A stretch of 50,925 nt of DNA, taken from UHGV virus genome UHGV-1370083; one strand, 5' to 3'. This stretch comes from a virus. The position numbers and the translations under genes were made by a program. Of the stretch, positions 6,152 through 35,240 are shown one piece after another (positions within the stretch are counted from its first letter, which is position 1; the number at the start of each line of letters is the position of its first letter). The notes beneath the pieces were generated by a model. That model ran no database searches. It saw only the letters and a program-made list of their open reading frames with translations, and was not told the DNA's origin.

Positions 6152-8803
6152 TTATATAGTTGTTACTGTGTCTGTAATAGTGTAGTCAGATAATGTTACC
6201 GAACCTAACCCATTTTCTGGGTGAATGTAGTATACTTCAAGCATCTCGGTATCTACTTTAAAAACAGGATAGTATAAACTACTGGCACCATCGTATACTA
6301 AACCAGATACATTCTCTGTAGCAGCATCACCTATAAGTGTCTTAAGGTCTGTGAGAGAGTTTACAACGAGTGATTTAGAGCTATATACTACCATATTAAA
6401 AAAGGCATCTCTGTCTGCGCCTGTAAAATTGATTACGTGCTTGTAGATATCGATATTACCTGTACCTAAAATAGAGTTTGTACCGAAGAGAATCTTGGTT
6501 GTGAGAGCACCAGTCTGGCCGTCTATTGATTTTACACCTTCGCTTGCACCGTTCAAGACAGCTTCATTACGAGTCCACTTACCATTTGGCGGGGATATTA
6601 GCATAGTAATCTCGTAAGCCTTATCAGACTTAAAGTATATGGCTCTATACCGTATAATCTTATCATCTGCGTTAGACGAATACTTTAAAATCATTTCCGA
6701 GGTAGTGTCATAAACATAATAATTATGCCCGTCTGGATTGCATAATTTTTCCTTTACGTCAGCAGCAAGTGTCCCAGTACTTGTACCATTAGGAATAGTA
6801 AAGGCTTTTACAAAATTTTCAGAAATATCAACTTTTTTCTCGTCCACGTATTGCTTATTTGTACAGTCCAGATTATCAATAGGAGTATTAGTTCTTATAT
6901 TACCTCCAGTTGTATATTGGGCTATATGTCCTTGCTCTGGAACATTTTCAGAAGTAGGAATTATATATTGCTCTCCTCCTGCTGAAATTCCATATACTCT
7001 AGTATTTTGAGTAGCTGTAATAACTTTTGCAATGAATCCTTCATCTACATATTTCCTGTTAGCTGCTTGATAAGGTTTTGTTGGAGTATTTGTAATTAGA
7101 ACACCACCGTCTCCCGCTATTGCATCACCAACCGCATAGCTTCTATAGGCTGGAATATCTCCTGTATCAGCTCTATCGTCGTCATCTACATATAGCAATA
7201 GATTTTCTGGCGGTAATAATGTTGCTTTTTTTGGAAGATAAGGAACGCGATTATAGTTACTAGAACTACCTGTAGATGCGTCTATAATATTAAATATTTT
7301 GCTATGGTCAACTTTAACATCAATCTTCTCACTATCGGCTGCTTTATCTATTACAATACCGTCTTTTCCTACAATAGGAATTGCTAAGTCCATCATAGCA
7401 TCATGATTAGTTCCTTCTGCTGTAAATCTTGCAGTGGAATTGATTTGAATACCTTCTGTAGTGTCGTATTGAACTGTTGTATCTCCCAGTGTCAGGTTAA
7501 CGTCTGTGAGAGAATTGATGCCGTCGTCTTTTCCACCGTCAATAAATTTTACATTTTTTTGTGAAGAATCTACTTCTACTTTAACTTTATGCCCGTTTGT
7601 GAAATTACTATAAGCATCTCTTGTTGCAATAGGTTGTAAGTCGCTTGCATTTACGTCTACATTTCCTTTGCTATCCAATTTGATGTCGCCAACATAAGCA
7701 GTTCCAGAATTATCGTAAACAAGTCCGCCGTCATTAGTCCCATCATATTTAGGCGTTATTAAACCTGCGGGAGAAGTCAATGCAGAGATATTATCTTTTG
7801 CTACGTAAATCAATTTGTCTGCGACTTTTAAAGTCGTTGACTCTATAACAGAAGTTTCTCCACTTACGCTTAAATTGCCTGAAACAATTAAGTTTCCTGT
7901 AATTGTTCCGCCGGTTCTATCAAGTTTCTTTAACAGTTCAGCATCTGTATAATTCAGCAAAGTCTTTTGCTGTTTGTAAGAAACTGCGTCCTCATCAGAT
8001 ACAGCGTCAGCGGTTTTTACTCGCCCTGCGCTATCACGTTTTACAATACTATTCGGCGTTTCCGTTACTTCTCCGTCAACTTTAACTTCAACCTGCATTT
8101 TATTATTGACTTTGTCAATTAAAATGCCGTCACCTGGAATTACCGGAATATCAAGAGTTGCAGGAATATCGTAAGCTTCACCATCATCTCTAGTAAATCT
8201 TACTATTGCAGACAACTGAATACCGTCGGTACTATCATACTGAACATTCTCAAACTCGCCATGCGGATAGTCAATATCAATAATATCTTTAATACCAGCG
8301 CCTTCTTTACCCTGCTCTCCTCGGTCGCCTTTATCACCTTTATCACCTTTATCGCCTTTATCACCTTTATCGCCTTTATCACCTTTATCACCTTTATCGC
8401 CTTTTGGTCCTACTTCACCTTGCAATGAAAATACGCTCTGATTATCAGTAATAACCAAAAAGTTTTCATCAGCTGAAATACCTGTAATTACAAAAACTTC
8501 GCCTCTGGTAAAACCAAAAGCGTCTTCTCGTAACATAATGTATTCACCAATTTTTACAGGTCTGTTATCTACAAGACTTGCGTCGTCTATAGTCCAAGTT
8601 AAATCGCCTTCTCCTTCTTCCTGTCCTACAATAGTACCTACATATTGTGGAACGCCTCTTTCCCAAATAGCTGAGACTTCACCATTATTAACAGTGAAGT
8701 CTTTAGCATTAAAAGAAGCTATACCTTTAGCAGAATTACTTGCAATAGGAATTGAAACAGCGCCAGGGCTATCTACGTTTTCTACTACGTCTTTCTCAGA
8801 CAT
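6152..8803 (-). CDS. Collagen-like repeat fibre protein, putative tail fibre or receptor-binding protein (883 aa).
   Basis: The conserved N-terminal anchor-like domain is followed by (GDK)x10 within a 13-triplet G-X-Y run, then a long Thr/Asn/Tyr-rich C-terminal region. TTAAGGAGGTAAAC before the ATG at 8801-8803. Confidence 0.6.
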   Translation of the reverse strand: MSEKDVVENVDSPGAVSIPIASNSAKGIASFNAKDFTVNNGEVSAIWERGVPQYVGTIVGQEEGEGDLTWTIDDASLVDNRPVKIGEYIMLREDAFGFTRGEVFVITGISADENFLVITDNQSVFSLQGEVGPKGDKGDKGDKGDKGDKGDKGDKGDKGDRGEQGKEGAGIKDIIDIDYPHGEFENVQYDSTDGIQLSAIVRFTRDDGEAYDIPATLDIPVIPGDGILIDKVNNKMQVEVKVDGEVTETPNSIVKRDSAGRVKTADAVSDEDAVSYKQQKTLLNYTDAELLKKLDRTGGTITGNLIVSGNLSVSGETSVIESTTLKVADKLIYVAKDNISALTSPAGLITPKYDGTNDGGLVYDNSGTAYVGDIKLDSKGNVDVNASDLQPIATRDAYSNFTNGHKVKVEVDSSQKNVKFIDGGKDDGINSLTDVNLTLGDTTVQYDTTEGIQINSTARFTAEGTNHDAMMDLAIPIVGKDGIVIDKAADSEKIDVKVDHSKIFNIIDASTGSSSNYNRVPYLPKKATLLPPENLLLYVDDDDRADTGDIPAYRSYAVGDAIAGDGGVLITNTPTKPYQAANRKYVDEGFIAKVITATQNTRVYGISAGGEQYIIPTSENVPEQGHIAQYTTGGNIRTNTPIDNLDCTNKQYVDEKKVDISENFVKAFTIPNGTSTGTLAADVKEKLCNPDGHNYYVYDTTSEMILKYSSNADDKIIRYRAIYFKSDKAYEITMLISPPNGKWTRNEAVLNGASEGVKSIDGQTGALTTKILFGTNSILGTGNIDIYKHVINFTGADRDAFFNMVVYSSKSLVVNSLTDLKTLIGDAATENVSGLVYDGASSLYYPVFKVDTEMLEVYYIHPENGLGSVTLSDYTITDTVTTI
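8327..8408. repeat. Tandem 9-nt repeat (CTTTATCAC/CGCCTTTAT units, about 9-10 copies) that encodes the GDKGDK... collagen-like tract.
   Basis: Read directly from the sequence. The plus-strand ORF 8203..8391 (MIKVIKAIKV...) is an artefact of this repeat. Confidence 0.85.
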
Positions 8804-11668: not shown

Positions 11669-13390
11669 TCAAGCAAGCGAGGCATGCAAATTATCGGGCA
11701 CGTCATAGTCTGCATCTTCCTCGTACCACTCTTCCGGATAGCCAAACGTTCTGCAATATGCCTCCTTCTGCGCCTCATCTTTAAGCTGGTTATAATCTTC
11801 CCACTGGTCAGGTCTCCAATGTACGTATCTAATCGCTGTGCGGTGTTTAGCAGGCTTAATCTCTCCGGTAATAATTTTAATGATGCGGCTCGTGCCTTGT
11901 GAGTTAGCGTCCACCATATCATCGTGCCTACCGAACGGGAAGGTACTGTGTTGCTTAATAAATTTATCTCGTGCTGTGAGCCCATCATCTCGAGAGTCCC
12001 ACTCAACGTCTGCCTGCTCTTGTGCACTGAAGTCCATTGGCACGTGAAATGCGCCCGTGCTTACAAAAGGTGATATAGCTTGTGCACGAGCGTACTTGCC
12101 GCCTTGAGGGTTAACTGCTACAATAGCAGGCATCGCAGTGTCGTAGCGAAGCACGTCAATAATAGCAGAGCCGTTAGCTTTATCTTCTATAACAAGCTCA
12201 TCAATGTCAGGGAACTCTTTCACAATAGAACGTATCTTTGCAACAGTCTCAGTAAACGCCATACGCTTGTTAATAAGTTTCCACAAATAAATATATTTGC
12301 CTTTGACGCCTAAGAGCTCTATAGCAACGTAGTCGCTTGTCTCAGTATTTTTGAATGTTGCGTCTATCGACAACTGCAGGTAGTCCAAGGAACGTCTTAG
12401 GTCGTCTGTGCGATAGCAAGGAGTCCACCATGATGCGTGGAACAAGTTGCCGATAGCTGCTGAAGGTCTGCCTTGGTAGAGTGCGTTCCACGTACGTGAA
12501 CCGTCTGCTGCAATAACAAGTCTCTTCTTAGCAGCGAGCCACACATTATTATTAAGTATCTTCTGGGGTATCTTGCTCTCGTCGTCACCAACCTGTGCTC
12601 CAACAAGCGCGTCTCCAATATGGCGGCCTAACGGGTCGGGACCTACGTCAGCAGCTTCTTGGTCGTACTCAGCAGGTAAGTTGATGTACTTCCAAATATA
12701 CTCAGCCCAGTTAGTCAATATCCAACCAATAACGTCGTTCTCAACCCAGCGCGTCTGTATGACAATAAGTTTGCCACCAGGGTGAATACGGGACTGAACT
12801 GACGGGCCCATTTCGTCGTGTATTTTAGCAATAACAGTCTCACTGTCAGCTTGCTCTTTGTTTTTGATAGGGTCATCAATTATGAACAGCTCTGCGCCGT
12901 GACCAGTGATACCGGCCTTTAGACCTGCGGCTCTGCACTTGCCTCCGAGGATGGTCTCCCACTGAGCAACGCCTTGCACTGACGGGTTAGGTCTGCAGTC
13001 GTGTATGTAGCTGCCATCTTTAGCTTGCTGCAAAAACACTTCTTGTGCAATGGTACTGAACTTATCTCTGTTGCGACGTGAGAAGCTCTCTGCAAAGGAG
13101 CTCTCGTAGCCTGCAATTATCACAGCATCTGTAGGATGCTTGCCAAGGAACCACGATGGCAATGTCTCTGTCACTGTGTAGCTCTTGCCATGCTGAGGAG
13201 GTACTGACAACAATAATATGTCCATAGCACCGTTGGTACAAGGCGCCTCAAGGAACGCCTGTATCTCGTCGCACAAATATCTGTGGAAGCGCGACATATA
13301 AAACCCTGGGTTAGCCAAGGCAACGTACGTGCCATAGTCTGACCTGGCCTTGCGGCGAAGTAACTCGCCCTCGAGTGTGTTAGGTATCAT
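11669..13390 (-). CDS. Terminase large subunit. Start revised to the internal ATG, giving about 573 aa.
   Basis: Walker A PQHGKS and Walker B LFIIDDP, with a C-terminal acidic nuclease-like region. AAAGGAGACTCACATC before the ATG at 13388-13390. The ORF-track start at 13414 is GTG with no RBS. Confidence 0.7.
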   Translation of the reverse strand: MIPNTLEGELLRRKARSDYGTYVALANPGFYMSRFHRYLCDEIQAFLEAPCTNGAMDILLLSVPPQHGKSYTVTETLPSWFLGKHPTDAVIIAGYESSFAESFSRRNRDKFSTIAQEVFLQQAKDGSYIHDCRPNPSVQGVAQWETILGGKCRAAGLKAGITGHGAELFIIDDPIKNKEQADSETVIAKIHDEMGPSVQSRIHPGGKLIVIQTRWVENDVIGWILTNWAEYIWKYINLPAEYDQEAADVGPDPLGRHIGDALVGAQVGDDESKIPQKILNNNVWLAAKKRLVIAADGSRTWNALYQGRPSAAIGNLFHASWWTPCYRTDDLRRSLDYLQLSIDATFKNTETSDYVAIELLGVKGKYIYLWKLINKRMAFTETVAKIRSIVKEFPDIDELVIEDKANGSAIIDVLRYDTAMPAIVAVNPQGGKYARAQAISPFVSTGAFHVPMDFSAQEQADVEWDSRDDGLTARDKFIKQHSTFPFGRHDDMVDANSQGTSRIIKIITGEIKPAKHRTAIRYVHWRPDQWEDYNQLKDEAQKEAYCRTFGYPEEWYEEDADYDVPDNLHASLA

Positions 13391-13404
13391 GATGTGAGTC
13401 TCCT

Positions 13405-13707
13405 TTATAGCCACTTAGCGCCATGCTTGCGCTGGTGACGCTTAATGAGTTTATGAACGGGCTTGCTCAACGCGAACGTGATGCCAAACTGTATAGGCAT
13501 CGCAGGTGTGAACGGGCCTGCCCAAAATAGCCAATAGGCTGTAGCAATAGCTGCGCCTCTGGCTCGGTGAGTGATGAGTGTGTAGGCGTAGCCAATGATG
13601 CAAGGACTGAAGAATGCAACCAGCACTAGTAAATATATCACAATATTGACCGGGTCCTTAAGCTGCGTTAGCACGTCCTTGACGAATGTGATGAACTTAT
13701 GTATCAT
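13405..13707 (-). CDS. Small membrane protein. Start revised to an ATG, giving about 100 aa.
   Basis: Two hydrophobic helices. GGAG before the ATG at 13705-13707. The ORF-track start is TTG. Confidence 0.35.
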   Translation of the reverse strand: MIHKFITFVKDVLTQLKDPVNIVIYLLVLVAFFSPCIIGYAYTLITHRARGAAIATAYWLFWAGPFTPAMPIQFGITFALSKPVHKLIKRHQRKHGAKWL

Positions 13708-13801
13708 GCGAGTCTCCAATGAGGTATAAATAAGAGCCCACAGCGGAGGGCTATGAGCTCTTAGAAGTTATGGCCCTGGACGGATGGCCCTGCGGGTAAT
13801 G

Positions 13802-14005
13802 CTAGTCCTCCCAGCAGTCGAGTCGTGCTGTGAGTATGTTATGGTATGCCACCATGTGCCTGTACTGTTTGCGCAACAACTTGCGTGCCCTGCGCGACAA
13901 GGTGGTGTAGCGTGAGCTGGTGGCTATGAACAAATTAAGCTTGTTAATATTATTGCGCAGTGCTTCTTGCTCCTCAATCACTCTCTGTTTAGCCGTTGTT
14001 ATCAT
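13802..14005 (-). CDS. Small basic protein. Start revised to an ATG, giving about 67 aa.
   Basis: GAGGAGG before the ATG at 14003-14005. The ORF-track start is TTG at 14026. Confidence 0.3.
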   Translation of the reverse strand: MITTAKQRVIEEQEALRNNINKLNLFIATSSRYTTLSRRARKLLRKQYRHMVAYHNILTARLDCWED

Positions 14006-15049: not shown

Positions 15050-15499
15050 ATGAAAGTTATTGTTAAAAAATCAAGCGATTTCAAGTCCGGCTATGCTATG
15101 TCCATTATAGACGACACCGGCAAAGCAAACACATGCGAGCTCAATTTTTGGTCGGCTGGCAAGACAAACCCGCGGTATAAGGATACACTCTTATTGCCGA
15201 AAAATCCGGCTAATAGAACATACTTCGATGTCAAGCAATTTGCAAAGAAGGGTGTAGACGAAATCGAACTCGAATACCGTGAAACCCGCATCCTTGGGCC
15301 CTACAATGTTGGTGTGCCAAAAAAGGACTGGACGGAATACATGACGGAAGAAGAAAAAGCTCAATATGATGCTATCCGGCATGCTTGCTTTGAAAGAAAG
15401 AAAGTTGCAGAAACACCGAAACCGCTCACGGAAGCTGAAAAACTGCAGCTCGAAATCGAAAAGCTCACGAAAAAGCTTGAGGCTCTGCAAAGCAAATAA
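15050..15499 (+). CDS. Early protein (149 aa), paralog-family member 1 (KNPANRTYF motif plus a C-terminal coiled coil).
   Basis: Aligns with ORFs 17590..18072 and 18087..18299. ATG at 15050. Confidence 0.5.
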   Translation: MKVIVKKSSDFKSGYAMSIIDDTGKANTCELNFWSAGKTNPRYKDTLLLPKNPANRTYFDVKQFAKKGVDEIELEYRETRILGPYNVGVPKKDWTEYMTEEEKAQYDAIRHACFERKKVAETPKPLTEAEKLQLEIEKLTKKLEALQSK

Positions 15500-15961: not shown

Positions 15962-16297
15962 ATGAAAATTGAAGGTTTCACAGTACAATTCAACACGTCG
16001 GCAACAAATTACAGAGGGCAGCTCATTGAGGCTGTACCTTATTGGAGACTCTATCTTGTCGACCGCTCAGACCGGCACAATCCAGTACGCACGGCTATCG
16101 GTGTCTACTCATTGCATGAGCTTCAACTTTATTTCCGTAGCATATATGACAATAAAGGTGTGCCAGCACCCGGACGCTCGTTTGAAGCATATGCTCGAGC
16201 TTCGCGACGTGTAAATCGCAAGCCCAATAGTATATCATCCAAAGAGCTTAAGGAAAAGATAAAGCAACTTGAAAGAAAGCTCAAAGGACTTATGTAA
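15962..16297 (+). CDS. Hypothetical protein (111 aa) with a coiled-coil C-terminus.
   Basis: GAGGTGAATAAAT before the ATG at 15962. Confidence 0.45.
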   Translation: MKIEGFTVQFNTSATNYRGQLIEAVPYWRLYLVDRSDRHNPVRTAIGVYSLHELQLYFRSIYDNKGVPAPGRSFEAYARASRRVNRKPNSISSKELKEKIKQLERKLKGLM

Positions 16298-16735
16298 CAG
16301 CTCAGCGTTTTGCAAGGTGTAGTGCGGCCGAAGGCTTCTCGATTATAATTTTTCGGAAGTCTTTTCGGGCATTACACAAAATTCAAAATTATTCTACTTT
16401 TTCGAAATTTTAATGACGAAAATTTTGTGAAAAGGGTTTTGAATTTGGGTTAAGGTTTACGGGTTTGGTTTTGCACCTGCAAATTTGAGAAAATTTTTCC
16501 GAAAAAATATAAGGGGGGGGGCCATTTTCCACATATTAAATAAAAATTATTATTCAGCCACTAACCCGGTAAAAATAATTATATATATACATACATTATA
16601 ATATAATAATCGGGGGGGGGCTATATATTTTTCGGAAAAAGATTTGAAAAATTTCAAGTGCAAAACCTAAACTCCAAACCCTTTTCGTCAACGTCTAAAA
16701 TAAATAAATAAACAATAAATCAAGGAGGCATTTTT
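16298..16735. promoter_or_regulatory. Structured non-coding region and candidate replication origin: inverted repeat, G9, AT-rich spacer, G9, inverted repeat, plus iterons.
   Basis: The left arm (about 16408-16512) and right arm (about 16621-16692) are imperfect reverse complements. G9 tracts lie at 16513-16521 and 16612-16620. A 90-bp spacer of more than 80% AT separates them. TTTTTCGGAA/TTCCGAAAAA occurs three times, at about 16348, 16494 and 16627. Confidence 0.4.
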
Positions 16736-17404
16736 ATGCACGACTATTGTAAAAACTCAGCTCACTCCAGCAACTTCAATCTTGCAGTCACTCTGACGAA
16801 AGATACTATCTTACAACAGCCAGACCACTCTTGCTTTGCTTTTCCGTCATACTGGACTCTCGACTGTTGCTTGAAACGGTTGACCCAGCTTATTGGCAAG
16901 CCGACCAGACAATACATTGCAGAGACTCATCGCAAAGAAAATGACTACGACAGTGAGGATGAGATTATTGCGGTGCCTTATAACACATACGACTTCATTG
17001 TCGCTACCGACAATATGTACTTCATTGTCAGAGATACACCGGATGACGCGTTCCATCACTCTTACAAGTTTGAGGTTCGGCACGGCGAGTATAAGCCGGA
17101 CCACTTGTATTGCTACACCTACAATCTTGTGCCGTTCACAACTAAAACCTTCAAGCTTACATATCGCAAGAATACTAAAATGTTCTACCTGTTCGAAGGT
17201 TCTACCGTTGTGTGTTGCAATAAGGACTACGACTGGATATGCGCCGTGGTTATTAACAAGCTTGTTGATAAGACTGACCCGCTCACTTACCGGCTCAAGC
17301 ATCGCATCAAGTTGTCAAAGGGTTATGTTGAGTGGTGCAAAGACAACGGCATGCCGCTCGTGACTGACGGTTATGAGCCTCGCGCGTACGTGACATTATT
17401 ATAA
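16736..17404 (+). CDS. Hypothetical protein (222 aa), Cys/Tyr-rich, of unknown function.
   Basis: CAAGGAGG before the ATG at 16736. Its GC content is visibly higher than the downstream modules. Confidence 0.5.
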   Translation: MHDYCKNSAHSSNFNLAVTLTKDTILQQPDHSCFAFPSYWTLDCCLKRLTQLIGKPTRQYIAETHRKENDYDSEDEIIAVPYNTYDFIVATDNMYFIVRDTPDDAFHHSYKFEVRHGEYKPDHLYCYTYNLVPFTTKTFKLTYRKNTKMFYLFEGSTVVCCNKDYDWICAVVINKLVDKTDPLTYRLKHRIKLSKGYVEWCKDNGMPLVTDGYEPRAYVTLL

Positions 17405-17502
17405 TATACGTGCGCACGGCGCGATAACACCACATTACAAAGATAGTTCATAATATTGCAGTACTGACATGCATAATCAGTCAGTGAATAATTTTTTAAA
17501 AA

Positions 17503-17525
17503 TCGTATATATTATATATGTACGA
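17503..17525. promoter_or_regulatory. 23-bp palindromic element TCGTATATATTATATATGTACGA, a candidate operator or phage-specific promoter.
   Basis: Arms TCGTATA and TGTACGA flank a TATTATATA centre. A near-identical copy sits at 26350-26372. It lies 65 nt upstream of the ATG at 17590. Confidence 0.45.
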
Positions 17526-17589
17526 CGAATTCGATATATCCCGTCGACTGACGGATATAAATAAATTTTAGCTCAGGAGGAACATAAAC

Positions 17590-18072
17590 ATGAGCGAACA
17601 GGAAGTTATGGTAGCTGGTGTCGATTACGACCCGAACAAAGTGTATGCGAAAATCATCCGCGACGATAACGGCGATTTTCACATTGAGGACGAAGATGGA
17701 ACGGTTGGCCCCGTGCTTAAGTTCTACGAAGAAAACGGCAAGACCATTGGTTTGACCAAGAACGCCGCTAACCGCAGATACTTCAGCAAGGCTAAAGCTA
17801 TTGCCATCATCAACGAGAAAGGTTATGTGCCTTTGTATTACAAGCCGGACAAACCCGCTGGTACGCTTGGCATTAAGCATTTCCCGTACGACAAGTGGCT
17901 CTGCTATCTTGAAGAGGATGAGCAGAACGAGGTTAAAGCACTGTACGCCAAAGCACTTGAAGCTAAGGCAGCAGACAAGAAAGCGCCTAAGAGTGACGTT
18001 GAGAAATTGCAGGACAAGATTGCAAAGGCTCAGGCAGCTCTTAACAAACTTCTTGCCGAAGGTAATAACTAA
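17590..18072 (+). CDS. Early protein (160 aa), paralog-family member 2 (KNAANRRYF motif plus an Ala/Lys-rich coiled-coil C-terminus).
   Basis: CAGGAGGAACATAAAC before the ATG. Aligns with ORF 15050..15499. Confidence 0.5.
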   Translation: MSEQEVMVAGVDYDPNKVYAKIIRDDNGDFHIEDEDGTVGPVLKFYEENGKTIGLTKNAANRRYFSKAKAIAIINEKGYVPLYYKPDKPAGTLGIKHFPYDKWLCYLEEDEQNEVKALYAKALEAKAADKKAPKSDVEKLQDKIAKAQAALNKLLAEGNN

Positions 18073-22585: not shown

Positions 22586-22787
22586 AGTTTTTGATAAAGA
22601 CTTTGAAGAATGGGAAACGCATGGTAACGTGACAGCAGTTATTGAGCAGGCAGATACTGTTATATTTTTATATACTGATGGTATGTGGTCGATGCTTAGC
22701 AAAATGCGTTTTGATATAAATCAGCCAGTTTGGAAAAAATATACCGCAACATTGGAGGAAGTAAATAATGTCGCATTCAAACAGTAG
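22554..22787 (+). CDS. Hypothetical protein (77 aa).
   Basis: AAGGGAGGTAAAAG before the ATG. Confidence 0.4.
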   Translation: MKTILKVATVKVFDKDFEEWETHGNVTAVIEQADTVIFLYTDGMWSMLSKMRFDINQPVWKKYTATLEEVNNVAFKQ

Positions 22788-23796
22788 TCTTAATTGTTTT
22801 GCAAGTTGTATGCAAAAATATAACCAAAATTATATCTTGCATAATCAGCCTGCAACTATCAGTCCACATCTTACCTTTGGTACAATGGCTCATGAAGTAT
22901 TATACAACGCAGGTAAGTTACGAGATGATAGTGACGATGGAGTAATCAATCCAGATGATTATTACAGAGTCATTCCGAGTGAAGTATTATATCCTGAATT
23001 AAAGTCAGCATTTAATATTAACTCGTGGGACCTGTACTTTAAAGCAGCTATCAAACAAGTTGTGCAGTACGAGAAGGAATGTTGCAAAGAATTAAGTGAC
23101 TATGACAAAGCATCAGGTATAGGCGATGGTTCTTATGAGATTGAACGAGAACTTAAGTTGCAGTTAACTGTGGACCAGCTTAAACAGCTTGGTGAGTATG
23201 GTATTGACCAACCTTTTGTAGGTATCATCGACTTGCTTATTCATAGTAAAACATCTGCAATTATCTTGGACTACAAATTTAGTTCAGCTCGTAAGAGTCA
23301 AGAGGACTTTGATAACAATAGTCAGCTTCCATTGTATGCATTGTTTGTGCATATATTGTATGACATTCCGCTTCAGAATATTCAGTATGGTTACATTGAT
23401 ATTCCAAAACAAATGTTTGAGATGCCTGCACTATTAAAAAATGGCACATTGTCTCGGTCAAAAGCTCAGAACTGTTCAGCAGAAATGTATAAAGCAGCTG
23501 TTGAAGCAGTGCATGGTGCTGACCCGTATTATAATTGTAATGCAGGTGGCTATTACGAAGAAGCTTATAACTCATTTGCTTTGAATAAAGCTGCATATTT
23601 GTCGAAACAGTATCTTGACTTAGAAATTTATGAGCATATTATAAGAGAGTTGTTTGATACAGCAAAGACAATTGATATGTTCAAAGCAAAGAATTTACCT
23701 TTCTTGAGAAAATTTGATAGCTACTCTTGCAAAGGTTGTGAATACAAAAATACTTGCAAACCTTGGTTAGCTCAGGTTTGGAATGAGGAGGTATAA
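22768..23796 (+). CDS. PD-(D/E)xK nuclease of the RecB/Cas4 type with a four-Cys cluster (342 aa).
   Basis: IGIIDLLIH...AIILDYKFS matches the RecB nuclease motifs (ID ... hhDYK). One N-terminal Cys (CFASC) plus C-terminal CKGCEYKNTC fit a Cas4-like Fe-S arrangement. TTGGAGGAAGTAAATA before the ATG. Confidence 0.6.
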   Translation: MSHSNSSLNCFASCMQKYNQNYILHNQPATISPHLTFGTMAHEVLYNAGKLRDDSDDGVINPDDYYRVIPSEVLYPELKSAFNINSWDLYFKAAIKQVVQYEKECCKELSDYDKASGIGDGSYEIERELKLQLTVDQLKQLGEYGIDQPFVGIIDLLIHSKTSAIILDYKFSSARKSQEDFDNNSQLPLYALFVHILYDIPLQNIQYGYIDIPKQMFEMPALLKNGTLSRSKAQNCSAEMYKAAVEAVHGADPYYNCNAGGYYEEAYNSFALNKAAYLSKQYLDLEIYEHIIRELFDTAKTIDMFKAKNLPFLRKFDSYSCKGCEYKNTCKPWLAQVWNEEV

Positions 23797-26314: not shown

Positions 26315-26349
26315 GAGAATAATTTCAGAGTGAAATAATTTTAAAAAAT

Positions 26350-26372: not shown

Positions 26373-26391
26373 AAAATTAAGGAGGTACTTT

Positions 26392-30020: not shown

Positions 30021-31299
30021 GTATTTAAAAAACGAACGGCCGTATCAAGAGTACGGCTGTAACTTTTTATTAGAGCGTAAACATGCATGCTTGTTTTATA
30101 AACCCGGTAAAGGCAAAACTTATCCAGTAATTAAAGCGGTTAGAGAAATAGAAGCAGCAAAAAAGCGTGATATTAAAGTTCTTGTTTTATCGACCGCAGC
30201 AGCAATTAAAATGATGTGGCTTGTTGATATTGACCCTCAGAAAATTATGCCGAAACAAACTGATTATATGTCTTTCACAAAAGCAGTGCAAGATAAAGTC
30301 AAACCTGTACTTTTAAAAACTTTGTGGGACGTAATTATTATAGATGAGTGTCATCACATTAAAGCTCATAATACAAAAATCTCTAAACTTGTATATCAGC
30401 TTACAAAGAAGTGTGAATATGTATTTGGTTTGACAGGTACGCCTCGTGGTAATAGTGACGTTGATATTTATTGTCAGTTCCACAATATGAATGTTTCAGG
30501 TTGGGGTGATATTTCATATACGTTATTTGTAAATACTTGTTGTGACGTTGATACAAAATTTGTAAGAGGTATTGCAATTAAAACTCCTACTGCAATCAAT
30601 GAAAAGTACAGAGGCGGTTTTGAAAAGAATGTTGCAATGTATTCACAGCGCAAAGATTATGATGAGTCTGATAATATGCCTGAACTTAATATTAGTATTG
30701 TGAAAATTCCTTTTACGCCAAGTAAAGAATATTTACAAGTTGAGCAAGGTGTATTGCAAATGAGTGATTATGAAACCACTTTGAATAAGTTAACTGCTAT
30801 TTGTAAATTGCAGCAACTTGCAAATGGGTTTGTATATATCACCGATGAATATGATGAAGAAAAGAGAACTTTTAAACTTGATGGCAAGAACTTAAAGCAC
30901 GATTGGTTACAAGATAACTTGAAAGATAATTCTGTTATTGTATATCGGTATGCTGAAGATTATAACCAACTCTGTAGTCTTATGAATAAAATAAATAAAA
31001 CTTATACAAACAATGTTGGTGAGTTCAAAGCAGGTAAAGCTAGTATATTGTTATTACAATGTTCTCAGTCAGAGTCTTTTAACTTGCAGCAATGTGCAAA
31101 TCTTATTTTTTATACAATGGACTATTCGTTTATCAATTTTGACCAGATGCTTCACAGAGTATATCGTATGGGTCAAAAAGAACAAGTAAATATTACAGTT
31201 CTTATAAGCGATGGTAGTATTGAGAATAAGATTTGGAATGCAGTAGATAGAAAACAAACTTTATCACAGTTATTTTATGCGATTAAAGGAGAAGTATAA
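30007..31299 (+). CDS. SNF2-family (DExH) helicase (430 aa).
   Basis: Motif I KPGKGKTY, II IIIDECHH, III GLTGTP, VI HRVYRMGQ. AAGGTGGTAAAGCAAG before the ATG. Confidence 0.7.
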   Translation: MNYNEYLKNERPYQEYGCNFLLERKHACLFYKPGKGKTYPVIKAVREIEAAKKRDIKVLVLSTAAAIKMMWLVDIDPQKIMPKQTDYMSFTKAVQDKVKPVLLKTLWDVIIIDECHHIKAHNTKISKLVYQLTKKCEYVFGLTGTPRGNSDVDIYCQFHNMNVSGWGDISYTLFVNTCCDVDTKFVRGIAIKTPTAINEKYRGGFEKNVAMYSQRKDYDESDNMPELNISIVKIPFTPSKEYLQVEQGVLQMSDYETTLNKLTAICKLQQLANGFVYITDEYDEEKRTFKLDGKNLKHDWLQDNLKDNSVIVYRYAEDYNQLCSLMNKINKTYTNNVGEFKAGKASILLLQCSQSESFNLQQCANLIFYTMDYSFINFDQMLHRVYRMGQKEQVNITVLISDGSIENKIWNAVDRKQTLSQLFYAIKGEV

Positions 31300-33320
31300 T
31301 GGACGAAAATCTTGCAAGACTTAATAGAATTTATCCAGACAGTAAGTATGTACTTATTCCTAAGTATAATGCAGAACAATGGGCCGGCATACCTTATGAT
31401 AGTGGAAAAGATAATAAAGCTGCACTTAATAAATGGAAATCTAATCCACTTAGTTATGAGCAAGCTGAACAAAAAGCAGAGGAAGGCTATCGTATCGGCT
31501 GGGTTATTCCTAAAGGTTATGTCGTAGTTGACGTAGATAACGAAGATGACCCTATGTCTGCTGAAAAATTAGAGCAGCTTCTTAATAAATTTGAAGTTAA
31601 TTACTCTTACAATTATACAAGTCGTGGCACTCATTTTTTATTAAAAGATGAAAGTGAAACAATTAAAACAGATAGCCATTCTAAATGCGCACTTAATATT
31701 GTTATTGATACACGTGCAAATGAGAGTGGCTACATTATATTACCTTGTAACGACCCTCACAGAGCTTGGGGGCATTGGGGCGACAGTGTTGAAGATATAC
31801 CTTACTTTCTTAAACCATTGCTCAAAGATACTACACCAAGCTTTATTGGTATGGTCGATGGTGATGGCCGTAATGATGCACTTTGGAAATGGCGCAGCAG
31901 ATTGGAACAAGTACATAAGCTTACGCCACAAGAAATTGAAAAGAGTATTCGTATTATTAACGAAAACTTATTTCAAATTGCAATTCCAAATAATGAGTTG
32001 TTTAAGACAGTTCTTCGTACCAAAGAAAAGAAAGAAGATAAAGTTGAAAAGCAAAATATATTAAACAAATATGCAGATGACCTAATTAGTCAGTTTGATA
32101 TTATATCAAGAGGTTCTAACTTTTATAAATTCACTGGTATTTATTATGAGCCAATTTCCGATATTGAGCTTGAACAGCTTATTCATCAAACAATAAGTAC
32201 AAACTTAAGTCACGGACAACGAATTGAAATTCTTGAATTTGTTAAAGTTAAGACACAACAACCTGCAGAATTATTTGACAAAGAGTGGTACAAAATTGCT
32301 TGTAAAAATGGTATACTTAACTTTATAAGTGGTGAGCTCGAGACACCAAACAAAACGGAACTTAATACAATTTTTATTCCGTTTGAGTATGATAATGACC
32401 CACCTTATTCACCTCGCATTGACCAGTTTATGAAGGAAATCACTAATGGTGATATTACAAAGATAAACTTCTTGTATCAGGTTGCAGGTTATTGCTTACT
32501 TAAGAAAAATATGTTTGCAAAGTTTTTTATTTTCTTAGGTGAAGGCGGTACAGGTAAATCAACTTATATGAATCTACTTTGCAAAATGGTTGGTGAAAAG
32601 AACTGTGCACGAGTTGCATTATCCGACTTCGATAAAGATTATTATTTATCAGGTTTAATGTCTAAACTTGTAAATGTAGATGATGACGTTATGGACAACA
32701 AAGCGCTTGAAGGTGTAGGTAAGTTTAAGTCAATGATTTCAGGTGACCCTATTTCTGCAAGACAGATTTACAAAGACGTTGTAACATTCACACCATATTG
32801 TACTTGTATCTTTTCTTGTAATAAACTTCCAAAGATTATGGATAAAACGACTGGCCTGTATCGTCGTCTTGTTATTGTAGAACTTAATAACAAGGTTAAA
32901 ACACCAGACCCTTTATTTATGGCAAAGGTTACAGATGAAGACATGCAGTACTTTTTATTTAAAGCAGTTGAAGGTATCAAGCAAGCAATCGAAGAAGGTC
33001 ATTTTGCAATCAATGAAACAGAAGCCGAATTACTTAGACGTTTCAAACGTAGACAAAGTGCATTGAGTGAATGGCTTTATGAAAACAATATTTGTCTTTG
33101 TGACTTAATCGGTAATAAAGTACTTCCTTTATATTCTCAGTTTAGAGATTGGTGCAACACAAGCGGGTATACAAAAATACCTGCGGCTTATTCATTTAAG
33201 GAAGATATTTGTGCAATGTATGGTATCGAACTTGATTTAGTAAAGTTAAATAATGGTGGTTTAGGTGGTCAATGTTTCTCAAAGCGTGGTGAATATGACC
33301 CGAACTATAAACCGTTCTAA
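31299..33320 (+). CDS. Primase-helicase (673 aa): N-terminal AEP/PrimPol-like domain fused to a D5/SF3-type helicase.
   Basis: VVVDVDNEDD (AEP hhDhD motif), a central D5_N-like region, and Walker A FLGEGGTGKST. AAAGGAGAAGTATA before the ATG. ATGG overlap with the upstream stop. Confidence 0.65.
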   Translation: MDENLARLNRIYPDSKYVLIPKYNAEQWAGIPYDSGKDNKAALNKWKSNPLSYEQAEQKAEEGYRIGWVIPKGYVVVDVDNEDDPMSAEKLEQLLNKFEVNYSYNYTSRGTHFLLKDESETIKTDSHSKCALNIVIDTRANESGYIILPCNDPHRAWGHWGDSVEDIPYFLKPLLKDTTPSFIGMVDGDGRNDALWKWRSRLEQVHKLTPQEIEKSIRIINENLFQIAIPNNELFKTVLRTKEKKEDKVEKQNILNKYADDLISQFDIISRGSNFYKFTGIYYEPISDIELEQLIHQTISTNLSHGQRIEILEFVKVKTQQPAELFDKEWYKIACKNGILNFISGELETPNKTELNTIFIPFEYDNDPPYSPRIDQFMKEITNGDITKINFLYQVAGYCLLKKNMFAKFFIFLGEGGTGKSTYMNLLCKMVGEKNCARVALSDFDKDYYLSGLMSKLVNVDDDVMDNKALEGVGKFKSMISGDPISARQIYKDVVTFTPYCTCIFSCNKLPKIMDKTTGLYRRLVIVELNNKVKTPDPLFMAKVTDEDMQYFLFKAVEGIKQAIEEGHFAINETEAELLRRFKRRQSALSEWLYENNICLCDLIGNKVLPLYSQFRDWCNTSGYTKIPAAYSFKEDICAMYGIELDLVKLNNGGLGGQCFSKRGEYDPNYKPF

Positions 33321-33332: not shown

Positions 33333-35240
33333 ATGTTAATGAGATTTTTCGACTTTGAAGTTTTTCCACATTGGTGGTGCTGCACATTTGGTGATTTGCA
33401 TAATGAAAAAGATGACGTCGATGAGAGTATTAAAGATACTTTTATTGTAGTTACTTCTGATATGCCTGACGCAAGAGAACGCTTGCTGAGCTTAATGAAA
33501 GAGAATGACGTTTGCGTTGTAGGTTACAATATTAAGTATTATGACTTAATGATTGCAAATGCAATATATCAAGGTTTTACACCAGAACAGGTTAAGATTA
33601 TCAATGACATAATCATTAGACCAGACTTAGCATGGAGCACTAAAGAGCATTTAAGATTACAGTCTTTTGCAAAGAAAAGATTATCAGGTTGTGTATATCA
33701 AGATTTGATGGACGATAACGATGGCTCACTTAAAGAAAAAGAAGCTATTCTTGGTCTTGATATTATGGAAAGTGAAGTTCCATTTGATAAAGAAGATTTA
33801 ACTGATTATGATAAAGTTGATGTTATTAAATATAACAAGCACGACGTTTATGCTTCAATGATTTTTTATCAAAAAGTTTGTTACAATTATACACAAACAA
33901 AGTTAATGCTTGGGCATAAGTTTAATATTCCAGAAGCTACTTGTCATATGGCAACTAATGCAAACCTTGTAGCTAAAGCGCTTAAAGCAGTTAGATGCAC
34001 TTTTGCAGATGCAGATAAAGTTGATATTAACTTACCTAAAAAGATTGACACTTATTGCAAAATAAATATTCCTGCAGAAGTACTTAATTATGTATTAACA
34101 AATCAAAGTGGGCTTCACGTAAAGTTATTTGGTAATGAAGTTGATTTTGGTAACGGTGGTATTCACTCTACTTTAGCAAGTAACTTATATGTAGAGTCTG
34201 ATAATGAATGGATATTAGTAAATGTCGATGCTCGTTCGTATTATCCTTCAATGCTTATACAATTTGCATTGCTTAGTCGAGCAGTTCATCAGCCCCAAAT
34301 CTTTGTAGATATTTATGATGAACGTGTTACAATTAAAAGTAAACCATCAAACGAGAAAACAGATTGGGACAAACTTCTTGAAGCTGCGCTTAAGTTAATT
34401 CTTAATACAACATACGGTGCAAGTGGTAACAAGTGGCTTGATTTATATGACCCTTATATGTGCACTTCGACATGTCGAGTAGGTCAGTTATTCTTAGCGG
34501 CGCTAGCTTGTAAAATTTATAGAGAAATTCCTGGTACAAAAATTATTCAAACTAACACTGATGGTATTCTTGCTTATGTACGCCGTAAAGATTTAGATAA
34601 GCTTAAAGCCTTACAAGCAGAATGGACTAAAGTTTCTGGTATCAATATGGACACCGATTATGTGAGTAAAATATGGCAAAGAGACGTTAACAATTATTTG
34701 CTTGTTAAAGAAGACGGTAGTATTAAAAAGAAAGGTGGTTGGCTTAATGATACGTATGTTAATAAAGGTACAGTTAAGCTTAGTCCTCTTACTGCATATA
34801 TTTGTGCAAAAGCTGCAACTAAGTTTTTGTTAGATGGAACTGATATTGTAGAGACAATTTATGCAGGAAGTAAGTTATCTGACTTTGTTATGACTTGTAA
34901 GAAAGGTCCTACTTATAGAGGTGTTATTCAAAAGTTTGAGGATGGTAGTGAGTTAGAACTCTTTAAATGTAACAGAGTTATTGCAACGACTGATACAAGT
35001 TGCGGTATGCTTTATAAATACAAAATGTTTAAAGGCAATTTGCAATATACTAAGATGCCGAATATTCCAGAACACTGCCGTACAATGAATGAAGATTTAA
35101 CCTCCTATGATTTTAGGGAGATTAGAAAGAAATTAGACTATATATTTTATATTATGAGGGCTCAAGACTTATTAGACATAGAATGGCAAAAATTGAGCGG
35201 TTTATCAATAACTCGCACAAAATCTTTCGATTATGTTTAA
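33333..35240 (+). CDS. Compact family-B DNA polymerase (635 aa).
   Basis: Exo I FDFEV, Exo II YNIKYYD, Exo III YNKHD. Motif A DARSYYPSML, motif B KLILNTTYGASG, and the DTD motif INMDTDY. CTAAGGAGAGTATAAT before the ATG. Confidence 0.65.
   Translation: MLMRFFDFEVFPHWWCCTFGDLHNEKDDVDESIKDTFIVVTSDMPDARERLLSLMKENDVCVVGYNIKYYDLMIANAIYQGFTPEQVKIINDIIIRPDLAWSTKEHLRLQSFAKKRLSGCVYQDLMDDNDGSLKEKEAILGLDIMESEVPFDKEDLTDYDKVDVIKYNKHDVYASMIFYQKVCYNYTQTKLMLGHKFNIPEATCHMATNANLVAKALKAVRCTFADADKVDINLPKKIDTYCKINIPAEVLNYVLTNQSGLHVKLFGNEVDFGNGGIHSTLASNLYVESDNEWILVNVDARSYYPSMLIQFALLSRAVHQPQIFVDIYDERVTIKSKPSNEKTDWDKLLEAALKLILNTTYGASGNKWLDLYDPYMCTSTCRVGQLFLAALACKIYREIPGTKIIQTNTDGILAYVRRKDLDKLKALQAEWTKVSGINMDTDYVSKIWQRDVNNYLLVKEDGSIKKKGGWLNDTYVNKGTVKLSPLTAYICAKAATKFLLDGTDIVETIYAGSKLSDFVMTCKKGPTYRGVIQKFEDGSELELFKCNRVIATTDTSCGMLYKYKMFKGNLQYTKMPNIPEHCRTMNEDLTSYDFREIRKKLDYIFYIMRAQDLLDIEWQKLSGLSITRTKSFDYV

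What the first reader, a model, noticed from the sequence alone, without database searches (positions are those of the whole stretch)
16298..16735. Origin-like structured non-coding island: inverted repeat, G9, AT-rich spacer, G9, inverted repeat, with iterons
This is a 438-bp gene-free region in an otherwise tightly packed plus-strand operon. The arms at about 16408-16512 and 16621-16692 are recognisably reverse-complementary; shared blocks include TGACGAAA, AGGGTTT, GGTTTTGCAC and TTTTTCCGAAAAA. Each arm ends inward at a G9 homopolymer. The two G-runs lie on the same strand, so the G-tracts themselves are not inverted. They bracket a 90-bp spacer that is more than 80% AT. TTTTTCGGAA/TTCCGAAAAA occurs three times. 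This architecture is typical of replication origins: iterons, an AT-rich DNA-unwinding element, and flanking inverted repeats. The phage encodes its own primase-helicase and PolB. Alternative readings are a structured non-coding RNA or a packaging or resolution site. G9 tracts in a roughly 33% GC genome are also prone to slippage, or could be sequencing or assembly artefacts (poly-G).
Basis: partly seen in the sequence, partly recalled or inferred. Interest (0 to 1): 0.7.

Follow-up and report, generated by a model that had tools for sequence, protein, structure and literature searches.

The report
Candidate phage replication origin with G/C clamps
A conserved 440-bp non-coding island in an uncultivated gut phage looks like the phage's DNA replication origin, built like the origins of staphylococcal pathogenicity islands but with an unusual run of about ten G:C pairs on each side of its easily melted centre.

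Summary
Window 16298-16735 has no credible ORF. An imperfect inverted repeat (16414-16512 / 16622-16690) encloses two G9 runs, the only homopolymers of 8 nt or more in 50.9 kb. These bracket a 90-nt, 80% AT spacer whose right half is the least stable 40-bp duplex in the window. It is not a poly-G artefact: five other assemblies carry the same island, at 95% mean identity while flanking genes drop to 65-90%.

About 20 more distant relatives (50-55 kb phages, two binned with Clostridia MAGs) have an analogous island in the same syntenic slot. Each has mirrored arms with lineage-specific short repeats and an AT/TATA-rich centre, usually bounded by 8-13 bp blocks of the form 5'-GnCm-3'. The G/C orientation of these blocks varies between lineages, which argues for a DNA-level rather than an RNA-level role.

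The phage primase-helicase is homologous to SaPI5 PriRep5, including its origin-binding C-terminal domain. SaPI origins are opposed short iterons around a central AT-rich region.

Best reading (about 0.5): a PriRep-type replication origin. This is inferred, not demonstrated. GC skew is uninformative. A promoter/operator region, RNA processing and packaging functions remain as rivals.

The parts
16317..16377 (+). Stem-loop just downstream of the 111-aa gene. Probably an RNA-level 3' stabiliser, terminator or processing hairpin, separate from the origin-like core.
   Evidence: Predicted in the MFE and consensus folds. Several substitutions among six relatives keep pairing through G-U wobble on the + strand only (GC->UG, UA->UG, GU->AU, CG->UG). 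Three cells are broken.
16414..16512 (.). Left arm of the inverted repeat.
   Evidence: Compensatory changes with the right arm occur in L053 (C:G->T:A) and probably L056 (A:T->G:C in a manual register).
16434..16472 (+). Cluster of short iteron-like repeats: GGGTTT, GGGTTA, GGTTTA, GGGTTT, GGTTTT.
   Evidence: GGGTTW matches at 16434, 16447 and 16461 on the + strand. Five of the 37 matches in the window fall inside the island. The mirrored copies lie in the right arm.
16494..16506 (.). TTTTTCCGAAAAA: a T-run/A-run near-palindrome 6 nt outside the left G/C block.
   Evidence: Several relatives have an equivalent T(4-7)-N(1-3)-A(4-7) element 3-27 nt outside a block.
16513..16523 (.). Left G:C block (G9C2).
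   Evidence: G9 is invariant in six close relatives.
16524..16610 (.). AT-rich spacer. It is polar: CATTTTCC... on the left, CAGCCACTAACCCGG in the centre, and a TATA-rich right half.
   Evidence: Only 2 substitutions within 16524-16610 across six relatives. The spacer is 86-89 nt in six diverged lineages.
16570..16609 (.). Candidate DNA unwinding element.
   Evidence: The least stable 40-bp duplex of the whole 50.9-kb window by nearest-neighbour free energy (-34.8 kcal/mol).
16611..16621 (.). Right G:C block (CG9C). It is G10C or G11C in close relatives.
16622..16690 (.). Right arm of the inverted repeat. It contains TTTTTCGGAAAAA (16628-16640) and mirrored repeats AAAACC / TAAAC / AAACCC (16662-16681).
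16691..16735 (+). Invariant A-rich leader with the Shine-Dalgarno of the 222-aa gene (AAGGAGG, 16722-16728).
   Evidence: Nearly invariant in all six sequences of alignment A1. L056 in A3 has (TAAA)4 instead of (TAAA)3 and AAGGAGA at the Shine-Dalgarno.
31299..33320 (+). Primase-helicase (Prim-Pol + D5_N + SF3 helicase + C-terminal domain). Candidate trans-acting initiator for the island.
   Evidence: Pfam and PHROG hits. Best PDB relative is 7OLA, SaPI5 PriRep5, at E 4.9e-24, with residues 330-631 aligned to 434-737, reaching into the ori-binding CTD. The C-terminal ~78 aa are 29-58% identical between lineages with different arms, against 64-74% for the core.
33333..35240 (+). Family B DNA polymerase.
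   Evidence: phrog_1252 at E 3.5e-109. Weak PDB hit to 1s5j, deposited as 'DNA polymerase I'; its identity as a family B enzyme is from memory.

Best explanation
The island is most likely the phage's origin of replication, of the type used by self-loading SF3 initiator-helicases (SaPI/PICI Rep and PriRep).

Proposed mechanism:
1. The phage primase-helicase (31299-33320) binds short lineage-specific repeats in the two arms through its C-terminal domain. In this phage the repeats are GGGTTW/GGTTT, three to five copies on the left and three mirrored copies on the right.
2. One hexamer assembles on each arm, facing the centre.
3. The AT/TATA-rich spacer melts. Its 40 bp at 16570-16609 are the least stable duplex in the genome.
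4. The fused Prim-Pol domain primes and the family B polymerase extends.
5. The ~10-bp G:C homopolymer blocks at the inner ends of the arms act as duplex clamps. They would confine the bubble to the spacer and keep the repeat arrays double-stranded. Alternatively, they provide C-run templates for G-started primers.

Shown: the anatomy, its conservation, the strand-independence of the blocks, and the homology of the initiator.

Inferred: binding, melting, priming, and the role of the G:C blocks.
For: (1) Conservation above background. The island is 97-100% identical between the window and L002, while the flanking coding sequence is 67-90%. Mean identity is 95% across six assemblies, with 2 substitutions in the spacer.

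(2) Family-wide architecture in a fixed syntenic slot. The island always lies between the g149 and g160 paralogues, 3-8 kb upstream of the exonuclease, in about 20 diverged relatives. For 15 relatives with correctly placed blocks, arm IR scores are 22-51 against shuffled scores of 9-14.

(3) The arm sequences differ between lineages, but each carries tandem short repeats in mirrored orientation. Examples are TGATAACT x2 per arm in L067, AATAAGAA x2 in L077/L080, CTGATAA in L103 and CACAAAAT x2 in L104. In the window, GGGTTW is clustered: 5 of 37 hits fall in 0.5% of the sequence.

(4) Block orientation varies: G..G, C..G, G..C, and G10C versus GC10 at homologous positions in L083 and L073. This fits a duplex-level role and not an RNA-level one.

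(5) The candidate DUE is the global minimum of 40-bp duplex stability.

(6) The primase-helicase is homologous to SaPI5 PriRep5 (7OLA), through the ATPase domain and into the CTD. PMC9371898 states that SaPI origins consist of 6-12 penta- or hexanucleotide iterons, half on each side of a central AT-rich region and pointing in opposite directions. They are bound by the Rep CTD winged helix, and the helicase loads itself.

(7) The C-terminal ~78 aa of the phage protein are markedly more diverged than the core between lineages with different arms. They are 99-100% identical where the arms are the same.

(8) The island sits 1.3 kb from the divergence point of the two gene blocks. Forks leaving it would therefore be co-oriented with almost all transcription.
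Against: - There is no direct replication evidence: no coverage, marker-frequency or plasmid assay.
- The cumulative GC-skew minimum is at about 12-13 kb, 3.5-4.5 kb from the island.
- In SaPIs the ori lies immediately downstream of rep. Here it is 15 kb upstream of the primase-helicase gene, which is followed directly by PolB.
- C-termini often evolve faster anyway. L060, whose right arm carries similar GGGTTA repeats, does not have a CTD closer to the window's (47%).
- The spacer is polar, with TAnAAT-like hexamers next to the right block. A promoter would also explain that.
- G:C blocks are absent from two islands (L063, L104), so they are not essential to whatever the island does. The two literature searches run here found no described origin with such blocks.
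- Mirrored lineage-specific repeats are equally what repressor operators look like.
Confidence: 0.5

Rival explanations
1. Transcription control region. A strong promoter in the TATA-rich right half of the spacer fires rightward into the downstream (middle/replication) genes. The mirrored arms would be operators for a lineage-specific regulator, and the upstream hairpin would end the first early operon. The G:C block just downstream of the -10-like hexamer would act as an extreme GC discriminator or as a slippage-prone start site.
For: - The spacer has the same polarity in all lineages, with the TATA-rich part and TAnAAT-like hexamers 0-5 nt from the gene-proximal block.
- The genes next to the island (111 aa, 222 aa) are lineage-specific, like the arms.
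- A conserved RNA-type hairpin ends the upstream gene.
- The island lies between the first early genes and the rest of the + strand block.
Against: - No convincing sigma-70 -35/-10 pair. The best candidates score 9 of 12, the region as a whole is only modestly enriched over shuffles (16 found vs 9.9 +/- 2.1), and the island's own candidates are weak. The candidate in the right arm is not conserved among close relatives.
- A start site inside 9-12 G:C pairs would be very hard to melt.
- The phage's recurrent promoter-like motif (TGATTTTAATATATAAT / TTGATATAATATATAG) is absent from the island.
- This reading does not explain why the left block and left arm mirror the right ones.
- It is compatible with an origin that contains a promoter, so the two readings are not strictly exclusive.
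Confidence: 0.2
2. RNA-level element. In the polycistronic + strand transcript the two arms pair into a long imperfect duplex, either an RNase III-type processing site or a structured non-coding RNA, with the spacer as its loop.
For: - The + strand folds to -114 kcal/mol (z -6.2), better than the - strand at -96 (z -4.1).
- Some arm pairs change by G-U or compensatory substitutions.
- The adjacent hairpin 16317-16377 does show wobble-type covariation.
Against: - The 'loop' (spacer) is the most conserved part.
- G versus C orientation of the blocks flips between lineages.
- The arms contain tandem internal repeats and self-palindromes, which base pairing does not require.
- Mismatches between the arms show no bias toward + strand wobble.
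- No Rfam family matches: 0 hits at gathering threshold, only noise at E<10.
Confidence: 0.1
3. Packaging or terminus element: a pac site, a cos site whose cohesive end is the G:C block, or the boundaries of a short direct terminal repeat equal to the spacer.
For: - Contig ends are enriched at the island. L001 starts 17 nt after the right block, L051 and L052 start 3 nt after it, L060 starts 7 nt before it, L062 ends 38 nt before it, and L069 ends inside the spacer.
- GC-rich 9-13 nt blocks resemble cohesive ends (general knowledge).
- The putative small terminase gene is only 2.6 kb away.
Against: - At least six close-relative contigs (counting the window) and 15 or more distant ones read straight through the island. 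The ~50-kb contigs are differently permuted.
- The break points scatter over about 60 nt rather than sitting at one base. One break is at a triplicated arm repeat. AT-rich sequence next to a G-homopolymer is a known Illumina weak spot (general knowledge).
- The nearest cultured TerL relatives (35% identity; Bacillus phage Page group) are described as headful packagers with circularly permuted genomes.
Confidence: 0.08
4. Recombination-related element: an invertible promoter switch, a MITE-like insertion, or another site-specific recombination target bounded by the inverted repeat.
For: - The layout is an inverted repeat around a short segment.
- An in-place G10C / GC10 flip separates L083 from L073.
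- Assemblies break there.
Against: - The spacer has the same orientation in all six close relatives and the same polarity in all the distant lineages examined.
- No integrase, invertase or transposase domain was found in about 40 ORFs scanned.
- It is single-copy, sits at a fixed syntenic position, and has no target-site duplication.
Confidence: 0.04
5. Sequencing or assembly artefact: two-colour-chemistry poly-G, or a chimeric join.
For: G-homopolymers are a known artefact of two-colour Illumina chemistry. Some contigs end nearby.
Against: - The same runs lie inside contigs with unique flanks in assemblies from different projects and assemblers: IMG/VR, ENA ULWQ01 and ERZ1026880 (SPAdes), Logan SRR24925840 and SRR13434599.
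- Relatives carry C-runs and mixed GnCm blocks at the equivalent position.
- The flanking sequence co-varies.
Confidence: 0.01

Closest known systems
SaPI / PICI replication origins bound by Rep or PriRep self-loading helicases (PMC9371898 and the Ubeda et al. 2007 and 2012 papers cited there)
   Same: - Short (5-8 bp) repeats on both sides of a central AT-rich region, pointing in opposite directions.
- The initiator is an SF3 helicase, here fused to a primase as in PriRep5, with sequence homology reaching into the ori-binding CTD.
- Arm repeats and the initiator CTD are both lineage-specific.
   Different: - The island is 15 kb from the initiator gene, not immediately downstream of it.
- It belongs to a ~51-kb phage with no detected integrase rather than a satellite island.
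- 8-13 bp 5'-GnCm-3' homopolymer blocks and T-run/A-run palindromes lie between the repeats and the AT-rich centre. The summary read does not mention such blocks for SaPI origins.
- Binding and melting are untested.
Core origins of papillomavirus (E1) and polyomavirus (large T antigen), also SF3 helicase initiators (general knowledge)
   Same: Inverted pairs of short initiator-binding sites next to an AT-rich, easily melted element. A double hexamer assembles head-to-head.
   Different: - Those origins are much more compact (about 60-80 bp).
- The binding sites are central, with the AT tract to one side.
- There is no sequence relationship and there are no homopolymer G:C blocks.
Phage P4 ori/crr with the alpha primase-helicase (general knowledge)
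   Same: A single primase-helicase-ori-binding protein recognises short repeated octamers in direct and inverted orientation. The origin is distant from the gene.
   Different: - The P4 alpha primase is of a different class.
- There are two separated cis sites (ori and crr).
- There is no bracketed AT spacer with G:C blocks.
G-run elements at transcription-primed origins: mitochondrial CSB II and the ColE1 RNA II G-stretch (general knowledge)
   Same: A G homopolymer of variable length next to an initiation zone. rG:dC hybrids stabilise an R-loop primer.
   Different: - Those act on one defined strand.
- Here the G/C orientation varies between lineages and two islands lack the blocks altogether.
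- No promoter has been demonstrated.
Invertible promoter switches (invertons)
   Same: An inverted repeat flanking a 100-200 bp AT-rich segment upstream of genes.
   Different: - The arms are 70-100 bp and imperfect.
- No recombinase was found.
- Only one orientation was ever seen.

Membership tests
SaPI/PICI-type Rep (PriRep) origin | The element encodes a Rep/PriRep-family SF3 initiator-helicase with a C-terminal ori-binding domain. | tested here: met
   Prim-Pol + D5_N + DUF5906/SF3 domains. phmmer hit to 7OLA (PriRep5) at E 4.9e-24, with residues 330-631 aligned to 434-737, into the CTD that starts at 676.
SaPI/PICI-type Rep (PriRep) origin | At least two short penta- to octanucleotide iterons on each side, pointing in opposite directions. 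| tested here: met
   Window: GGGTTW x3 plus GGTTT x2 on the left (+ strand), and AAACCC / TAAAC / AAAACC on the right. The right-arm copies are degenerate. Clear 2+2 mirrored repeats occur in L067, L077, L080, L103 and L104.
SaPI/PICI-type Rep (PriRep) origin | A central AT-rich region between the two iteron sets. | tested here: met
   The spacer is 90 nt and 80% AT. 16570-16609 is the least stable 40-bp duplex in the window. Spacers in 15 relatives with correctly placed blocks are 72-88% AT.
SaPI/PICI-type Rep (PriRep) origin | The ori lies immediately downstream of the rep gene. | tested here: not met
   The primase-helicase ends at 33320 and PolB starts at 33333. The island is at 16298-16735.
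SaPI/PICI-type Rep (PriRep) origin | The initiator binds and melts the ori, and the ori supports replication. | not testable with these tools
   Requires EMSA or footprinting, plasmid replication assays or marker-frequency data.
Classical iteron origin (lambda O, plasmid Rep, DnaA-dependent) | Tandem direct repeats of about 17-22 bp in helical phase, usually within or beside the initiator gene. | tested here: not met
   No direct-repeat family of that size was found in 16200-16800. Tandem Repeats Finder was not run. No lambda-O or plasmid Rep-type initiator domain was found.
Invertible promoter switch | Both orientations of the bracketed segment exist, and a site-specific recombinase is present. 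| tested here: not met
   A single orientation in six close relatives and a constant polarity in the distant lineages examined. No recombinase domain. Raw reads were not examined.
Genome terminus (cos or short DTR) | Fixed physical ends at the site, so that contigs do not read through, or end at one exact base. | tested here: not met
   More than 20 contigs read through. The ~50-kb contigs are differently permuted. The break points scatter. The nearest cultured TerL relatives are headful packagers. Virion read ends are not available.
Known structured RNA family (Rfam 15) | A match at or above a family's gathering score. | tested here: not met
   No hits at gathering threshold over the whole window. 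Only sub-threshold noise in 16200-16800. No tRNA or tmRNA.

The most novel reading that the evidence does not exclude
The paired 5'-GnCm-3' homopolymer blocks are a functional and previously undescribed origin module. They are about one helical turn of pure G:C, always with G-to-C polarity on both strands, variable in n:m and in length (G9/G10/G11), and placed exactly between the initiator-binding repeats and an ~88-bp unwinding zone. They could be bubble-delimiting clamps. Alternatively, they could be built-in priming sites that offer a 3' C-run template for G-started primers on either strand. This would define a new sub-class of self-loading-helicase origin in a large, uncultivated family of gut phages associated with Clostridia.
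Probability: 0.3. Interest if true: 0.65.

Novelty: new variant of a known kind. Interest (0 to 1): 0.55.

Why it matters
Replication origins are unknown for almost all uncultivated phages. Here a specific 440-bp element and a specific initiator can be paired on sequence evidence across a whole family of ~50-55 kb gut phages, which gives a directly testable origin. If confirmed, it extends the SaPI-type self-loading-helicase origin from satellites to a phage family with no detected integrase. It would also add a new structural feature, G:C homopolymer clamps around the unwinding element. There are two practical points as well. These islands are a hotspot for assembly breaks in this family. The homopolymer length varies between otherwise near-identical genomes.

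Tried and rejected
- GC skew: the minimum is at 12-13 kb and follows gene orientation, so it does not bear on the origin question.
- tRNA and Rfam searches: nothing.
- Megablast and tblastn against GenBank phages: no close relative. TerL reaches only 35% identity.
- 16-mer scan of viral contigs: mostly chance hits.
- Sigma-70 promoter and intrinsic-terminator scan: only 9-of-12 matches inside the island. Promoter-like sites in the region are modestly above shuffles and terminators are not. None of the island candidates is conserved.
- Test for + strand wobble bias in the main inverted repeat: no clear bias, whereas the upstream hairpin does show one.
- Test whether L060, which has similar GGGTTA repeats, has a CTD closer to the window's: it does not (47%).
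- AlphaFold model of the lineage-specific 222-aa neighbour: mean pLDDT 54, too poor for fold search, so abandoned.
- PDB, Pfam and PHROG searches of the 3131-aa protein: no hit, so a virion RNA polymerase with hairpin promoters could be neither supported nor excluded.
- Literature searches for G/C homopolymers at phage origins: nothing specific. The two primary SaPI ori papers are not held.
- Considered and rejected: poly-G artefact, MITE, inverton, cos/DTR, hairpin-telomere junction (the spacer is not a palindrome), and a protein-primed linear genome with ITRs (the spacer is real and contigs read through).
Full report
OBSERVATION

Window 16298-16735 lies between two + strand genes, 15962-16297 (111 aa) and 16736-17404 (222 aa, AAGGAGG at 16722). 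It contains only 31-40 aa chance ORFs.

The inverted repeat is real. The repeat finder reports a 53-nt arm pair at 75% complementarity and a 23-nt pair at 87%. A gapped alignment of the left arm against the reverse complement of the right arm shows TGACGAAAA, AAAAGGGTTT, GGTTTTGCAC and TTTTTCCGAAAAA in the same order. The local IR score is 34, against 12.4 +/- 2.6 for shuffles.

G9 runs sit at 16513-16521 and 16612-16620 on the + strand. They are the only homopolymers of 8 nt or more of any base in the 50,925-nt window, where 0.027 G9/C9 runs are expected.

The 90-nt spacer is exactly 80% AT. Its right part, 16570-16609, is the least stable 40-bp duplex of the whole window by nearest-neighbour energies.

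TTTTTCSGAAAAA occurs twice (0.22 expected), with a third, partial copy at 16349.

NOT AN ARTEFACT, AND UNDER CONSTRAINT

The 222-aa neighbour has homologues only in close relatives. Five further assemblies from different sources contain the complete island: L002 (IMG/VR), L055 (ENA ULWQ01), L056 (a SPAdes contig, ERZ1026880), and L054 and L053 (Logan).

Against L002 the island is 97-100% identical, while the adjacent coding sequence falls to 67-90%. Across the six sequences mean identity is 95%, and the spacer has two substitutions.

The first run is G9 in all six. The second is CG9, G10 or G11, so its length does vary.

Compensatory changes keep the arms complementary. In L053, TTTTTCCG/CGGAAAAA becomes TTTTTTCG/CGAAAAAA. 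In L056, an A:T pair appears to become G:C in a manually chosen register.

Three other contigs (L001, L051, L052) begin just to the right of the second run.

A SEPARATE RNA HAIRPIN

The stem-loop at 16317-16377, directly after the 111-aa gene, changes among relatives mostly by substitutions that preserve pairing only through G-U wobble on the + strand (GC->UG, UA->UG, GU->AU, CG->UG). I read this as an RNA-level 3' hairpin of the upstream transcript. It is not part of the core element.

FAMILY-WIDE ARCHITECTURE

The PD-(D/E)XK exonuclease (22768-23796) has hundreds of 55-70% identical homologues on 50-55 kb contigs. An alignment-based scan returned 28 related loci with 10-kb flanks, plus two contigs binned with Clostridia MAGs from sheep and rabbit gut.

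In these loci the gene order is conserved: TerS-like, g166 (- strand), g149..., g160, g70, g146, g273, exonuclease. An analogous non-coding island always lies between the paralogues g149 and g160.

Each island has three features:
- Two arms form an inverted repeat, scoring 22-51 against shuffled 9-14 in the 15 relatives with correctly placed blocks. Their sequence differs between lineages, and they contain tandem short repeats in mirrored orientation. Examples are TGATAACT x2 per arm (L067), AATAAGAA x2 (L077, L080), CTGATAA (L103) and CACAAAAT x2 (L104).
- Several carry a T-run/A-run palindrome 3-27 nt outside the inner end of an arm.
- The centre is AT- and TATA-rich, and is 86-89 nt long in six diverged lineages and 125-221 nt in the others.

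In about 18 lineages the centre is bounded on each side by a block of 8-13 pure G:C pairs of the form 5'-GnCm-3'. The opposite polarity does not occur at 8 nt or longer, apart from the single C before the window's second run.

Which strand carries the G-run varies. It is G..G in the window and L079, C..G in L070, L066, L061, L064 and L103, and G..C in L077, L076 and L080. At homologous positions L083 has G10C where L073 has GC10. Two islands (L063, L104) lack the blocks altogether.

The conserved feature is therefore a duplex property, roughly one turn of homopolymeric G:C, and not a G-run on a particular strand. This, together with the tandem repeats inside the arms and the fact that the 'loop' is the best-conserved part, argues against an RNA-level explanation for the main element.

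THE CANDIDATE INITIATOR

ORF 31299-33320 combines Prim-Pol, D5_N and an SF3 helicase. Its best relative among solved structures is 7OLA, E 4.9e-24, with residues 330-631 aligned to 434-737. 7OLA is PriRep5 of SaPI5.

In that paper (PMC9371898):
- Rep and PriRep are self-loading initiator-helicases.
- Their C-terminal domain (PriRep5 residues 676-790) carries the winged helix that recognises the origin.
- SaPI origins consist of 6-12 penta- or hexanucleotide iterons, half on each side of a central AT-rich region, with at least two on each side pointing in opposite directions.

The alignment here runs into that CTD (LYsqFrdWCntsGY aligned with VYafYkeYCdenGY).

Among 12 family members, the last ~78 residues are 29-58% identical between lineages with different arms, against 64-74% for the rest of the protein. 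They are 99-100% identical between lineages with the same arms. This is the pattern expected of a specificity domain, although fast-evolving C-termini are common. One pair with similar repeats (window and L060) is not closer (47%).

In the window, GGGTTW is clustered in the island: three copies on the left on the + strand, one in the centre and one on the right on the - strand, together 5 of 37 hits.

BEST EXPLANATION

The island is a PriRep-type replication origin (confidence about 0.5).
- Shown: the anatomy, its conservation and syntenic position, the strand-independence of the G:C blocks, the stability minimum, and the homology of the initiator including its ori-binding domain.
- Inferred: that this protein binds the arm repeats, that two hexamers load head-to-head and melt the spacer, that the Prim-Pol domain primes and PolB extends, and that the G:C blocks confine the bubble or serve as priming sites.

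Points against:
- There are no replication data.
- The GC-skew minimum is at 12-13 kb and simply follows gene orientation.
- The island is 15 kb from the initiator gene, whereas SaPI origins abut rep.
- The polarity of the spacer and the TAnAAT-like hexamers beside the right block could equally indicate a promoter.

RIVALS

- Promoter/operator region controlling the downstream genes (0.2). This fits the spacer polarity, the lineage-specific neighbouring genes and the upstream terminator-like hairpin. However, no conserved -35/-10 pair was found, and it does not explain the mirrored left half. An origin containing a promoter would reconcile the two readings.
- RNA processing hairpin or ncRNA (0.1). 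The + strand fold has z -6.2, but see the arguments above, and there is no Rfam match.
- Packaging site or terminus (0.08). Contig ends are enriched here. But more than 20 contigs read through, the ~50-kb contigs are differently permuted, and the breaks scatter over about 60 nt. The nearest cultured TerL relatives are headful packagers with permuted genomes.
- Inverton or mobile element (0.04). Only one orientation is ever seen, no recombinase was found, and the element is single-copy at a fixed position.
- Artefact (0.01).

COMPARISON AND NOVELTY

The element works like a SaPI/PICI origin and meets three of that family's four sequence-testable features. It fails the positional one. More loosely, it resembles the origins of other SF3-helicase initiators (papillomavirus E1, polyomavirus T antigen, P4 alpha).

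The summary read does not mention, for those origins, the pair of 5'-GnCm-3' homopolymer blocks with the ~88-bp spacing, and two literature searches found nothing comparable. I rate it a new variant of a known kind, in an uncultivated phage family with no close relative in GenBank phages.

The decisive tests are read-depth profiles, virion read ends, CTD-arm binding and a plasmid replication assay.

Noticed in passing
window 26222-26312, 45062-45140, 50703-50787, 35259-35340: A second kind of structured intergenic element. TGATTTT(T)AATATATAAT and its reverse complement bracket AT-rich spacers of about 45-60 nt that contain TTGATATAATATATAG (an extended -10-like TGnTATAAT). The motif also occurs in relatives (L063, L082). 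It is probably a phage promoter or terminator family.
   Followed up: partly
window 17487-17531 and 26334-26378: A 45-nt repeat (84% identical), AATAATTTT..AAAAAT(T)CGTATATATTATATAT(G/A)..ACGA, lying upstream of + strand gene starts. It is a hairpin-like regulatory motif.
   Followed up: no
window 16738-16757; relatives 70-180 nt right of the right G:C block: The motif CA(Y)(C)TTGTA(A/G)A(A/C), for example CACATCTTGTAAAAC, occurs on the + strand downstream of the island in 14 of 16 lineages (22 hits against 5.6 expected). In the window it overlaps the first codons of the 222-aa ORF (MHDYCK; M1, H2, Y4, C5 and K6 are invariant). Its function is unknown.
   Followed up: partly
window 15050-15499 and 17590-18072: The two genes that bracket the island region across the whole family (149 aa and 160 aa) are paralogues with no Pfam or PHROG annotation. 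The genes immediately next to the island (111 aa, 222 aa) are lineage-specific.
   Followed up: partly
window 35592-44987 (- strand): A giant 3131-aa ORF with no Pfam, PHROG or PDB sequence match. It is followed by 498-aa and 1101-aa ORFs that are also unannotated.
   Followed up: partly
window 8299-8424: A 9-nt tandem repeat array (collagen-like Gly-X-Y coding) inside the 883-aa tail-fibre-like ORF 6152-8803 (- strand).
   Followed up: no
L001, L051, L052, L060, L062, L069 (contig ends): Assemblies of this phage family break preferentially at the island, within about 40 nt of the gene-proximal G:C block or at a triplicated arm repeat. This is probably a coverage or error effect of TATA-rich sequence next to a G-homopolymer.
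   Followed up: partly
window 16700-16716; L056: A (TAAA)3 microsatellite in the invariant leader of the 222-aa gene is (TAAA)4 in L056.
   Followed up: no
window 12000-14000: A patch of 48-50% GC (TerL and the putative small terminase) in a ~37% GC genome. The cumulative GC-skew minimum lies here.
   Followed up: no
L073, L080, L070 upstream of the left arm: By eye, CAAAAT-type A-tracts recur at roughly 10-11 bp intervals (for example GGCAAAATGGCCAAAATAGGCTCAAAAGTCCCCAAAATAG) just outside the left arm in several relatives, suggesting intrinsically bent DNA. The spacing was not measured.
   Followed up: no
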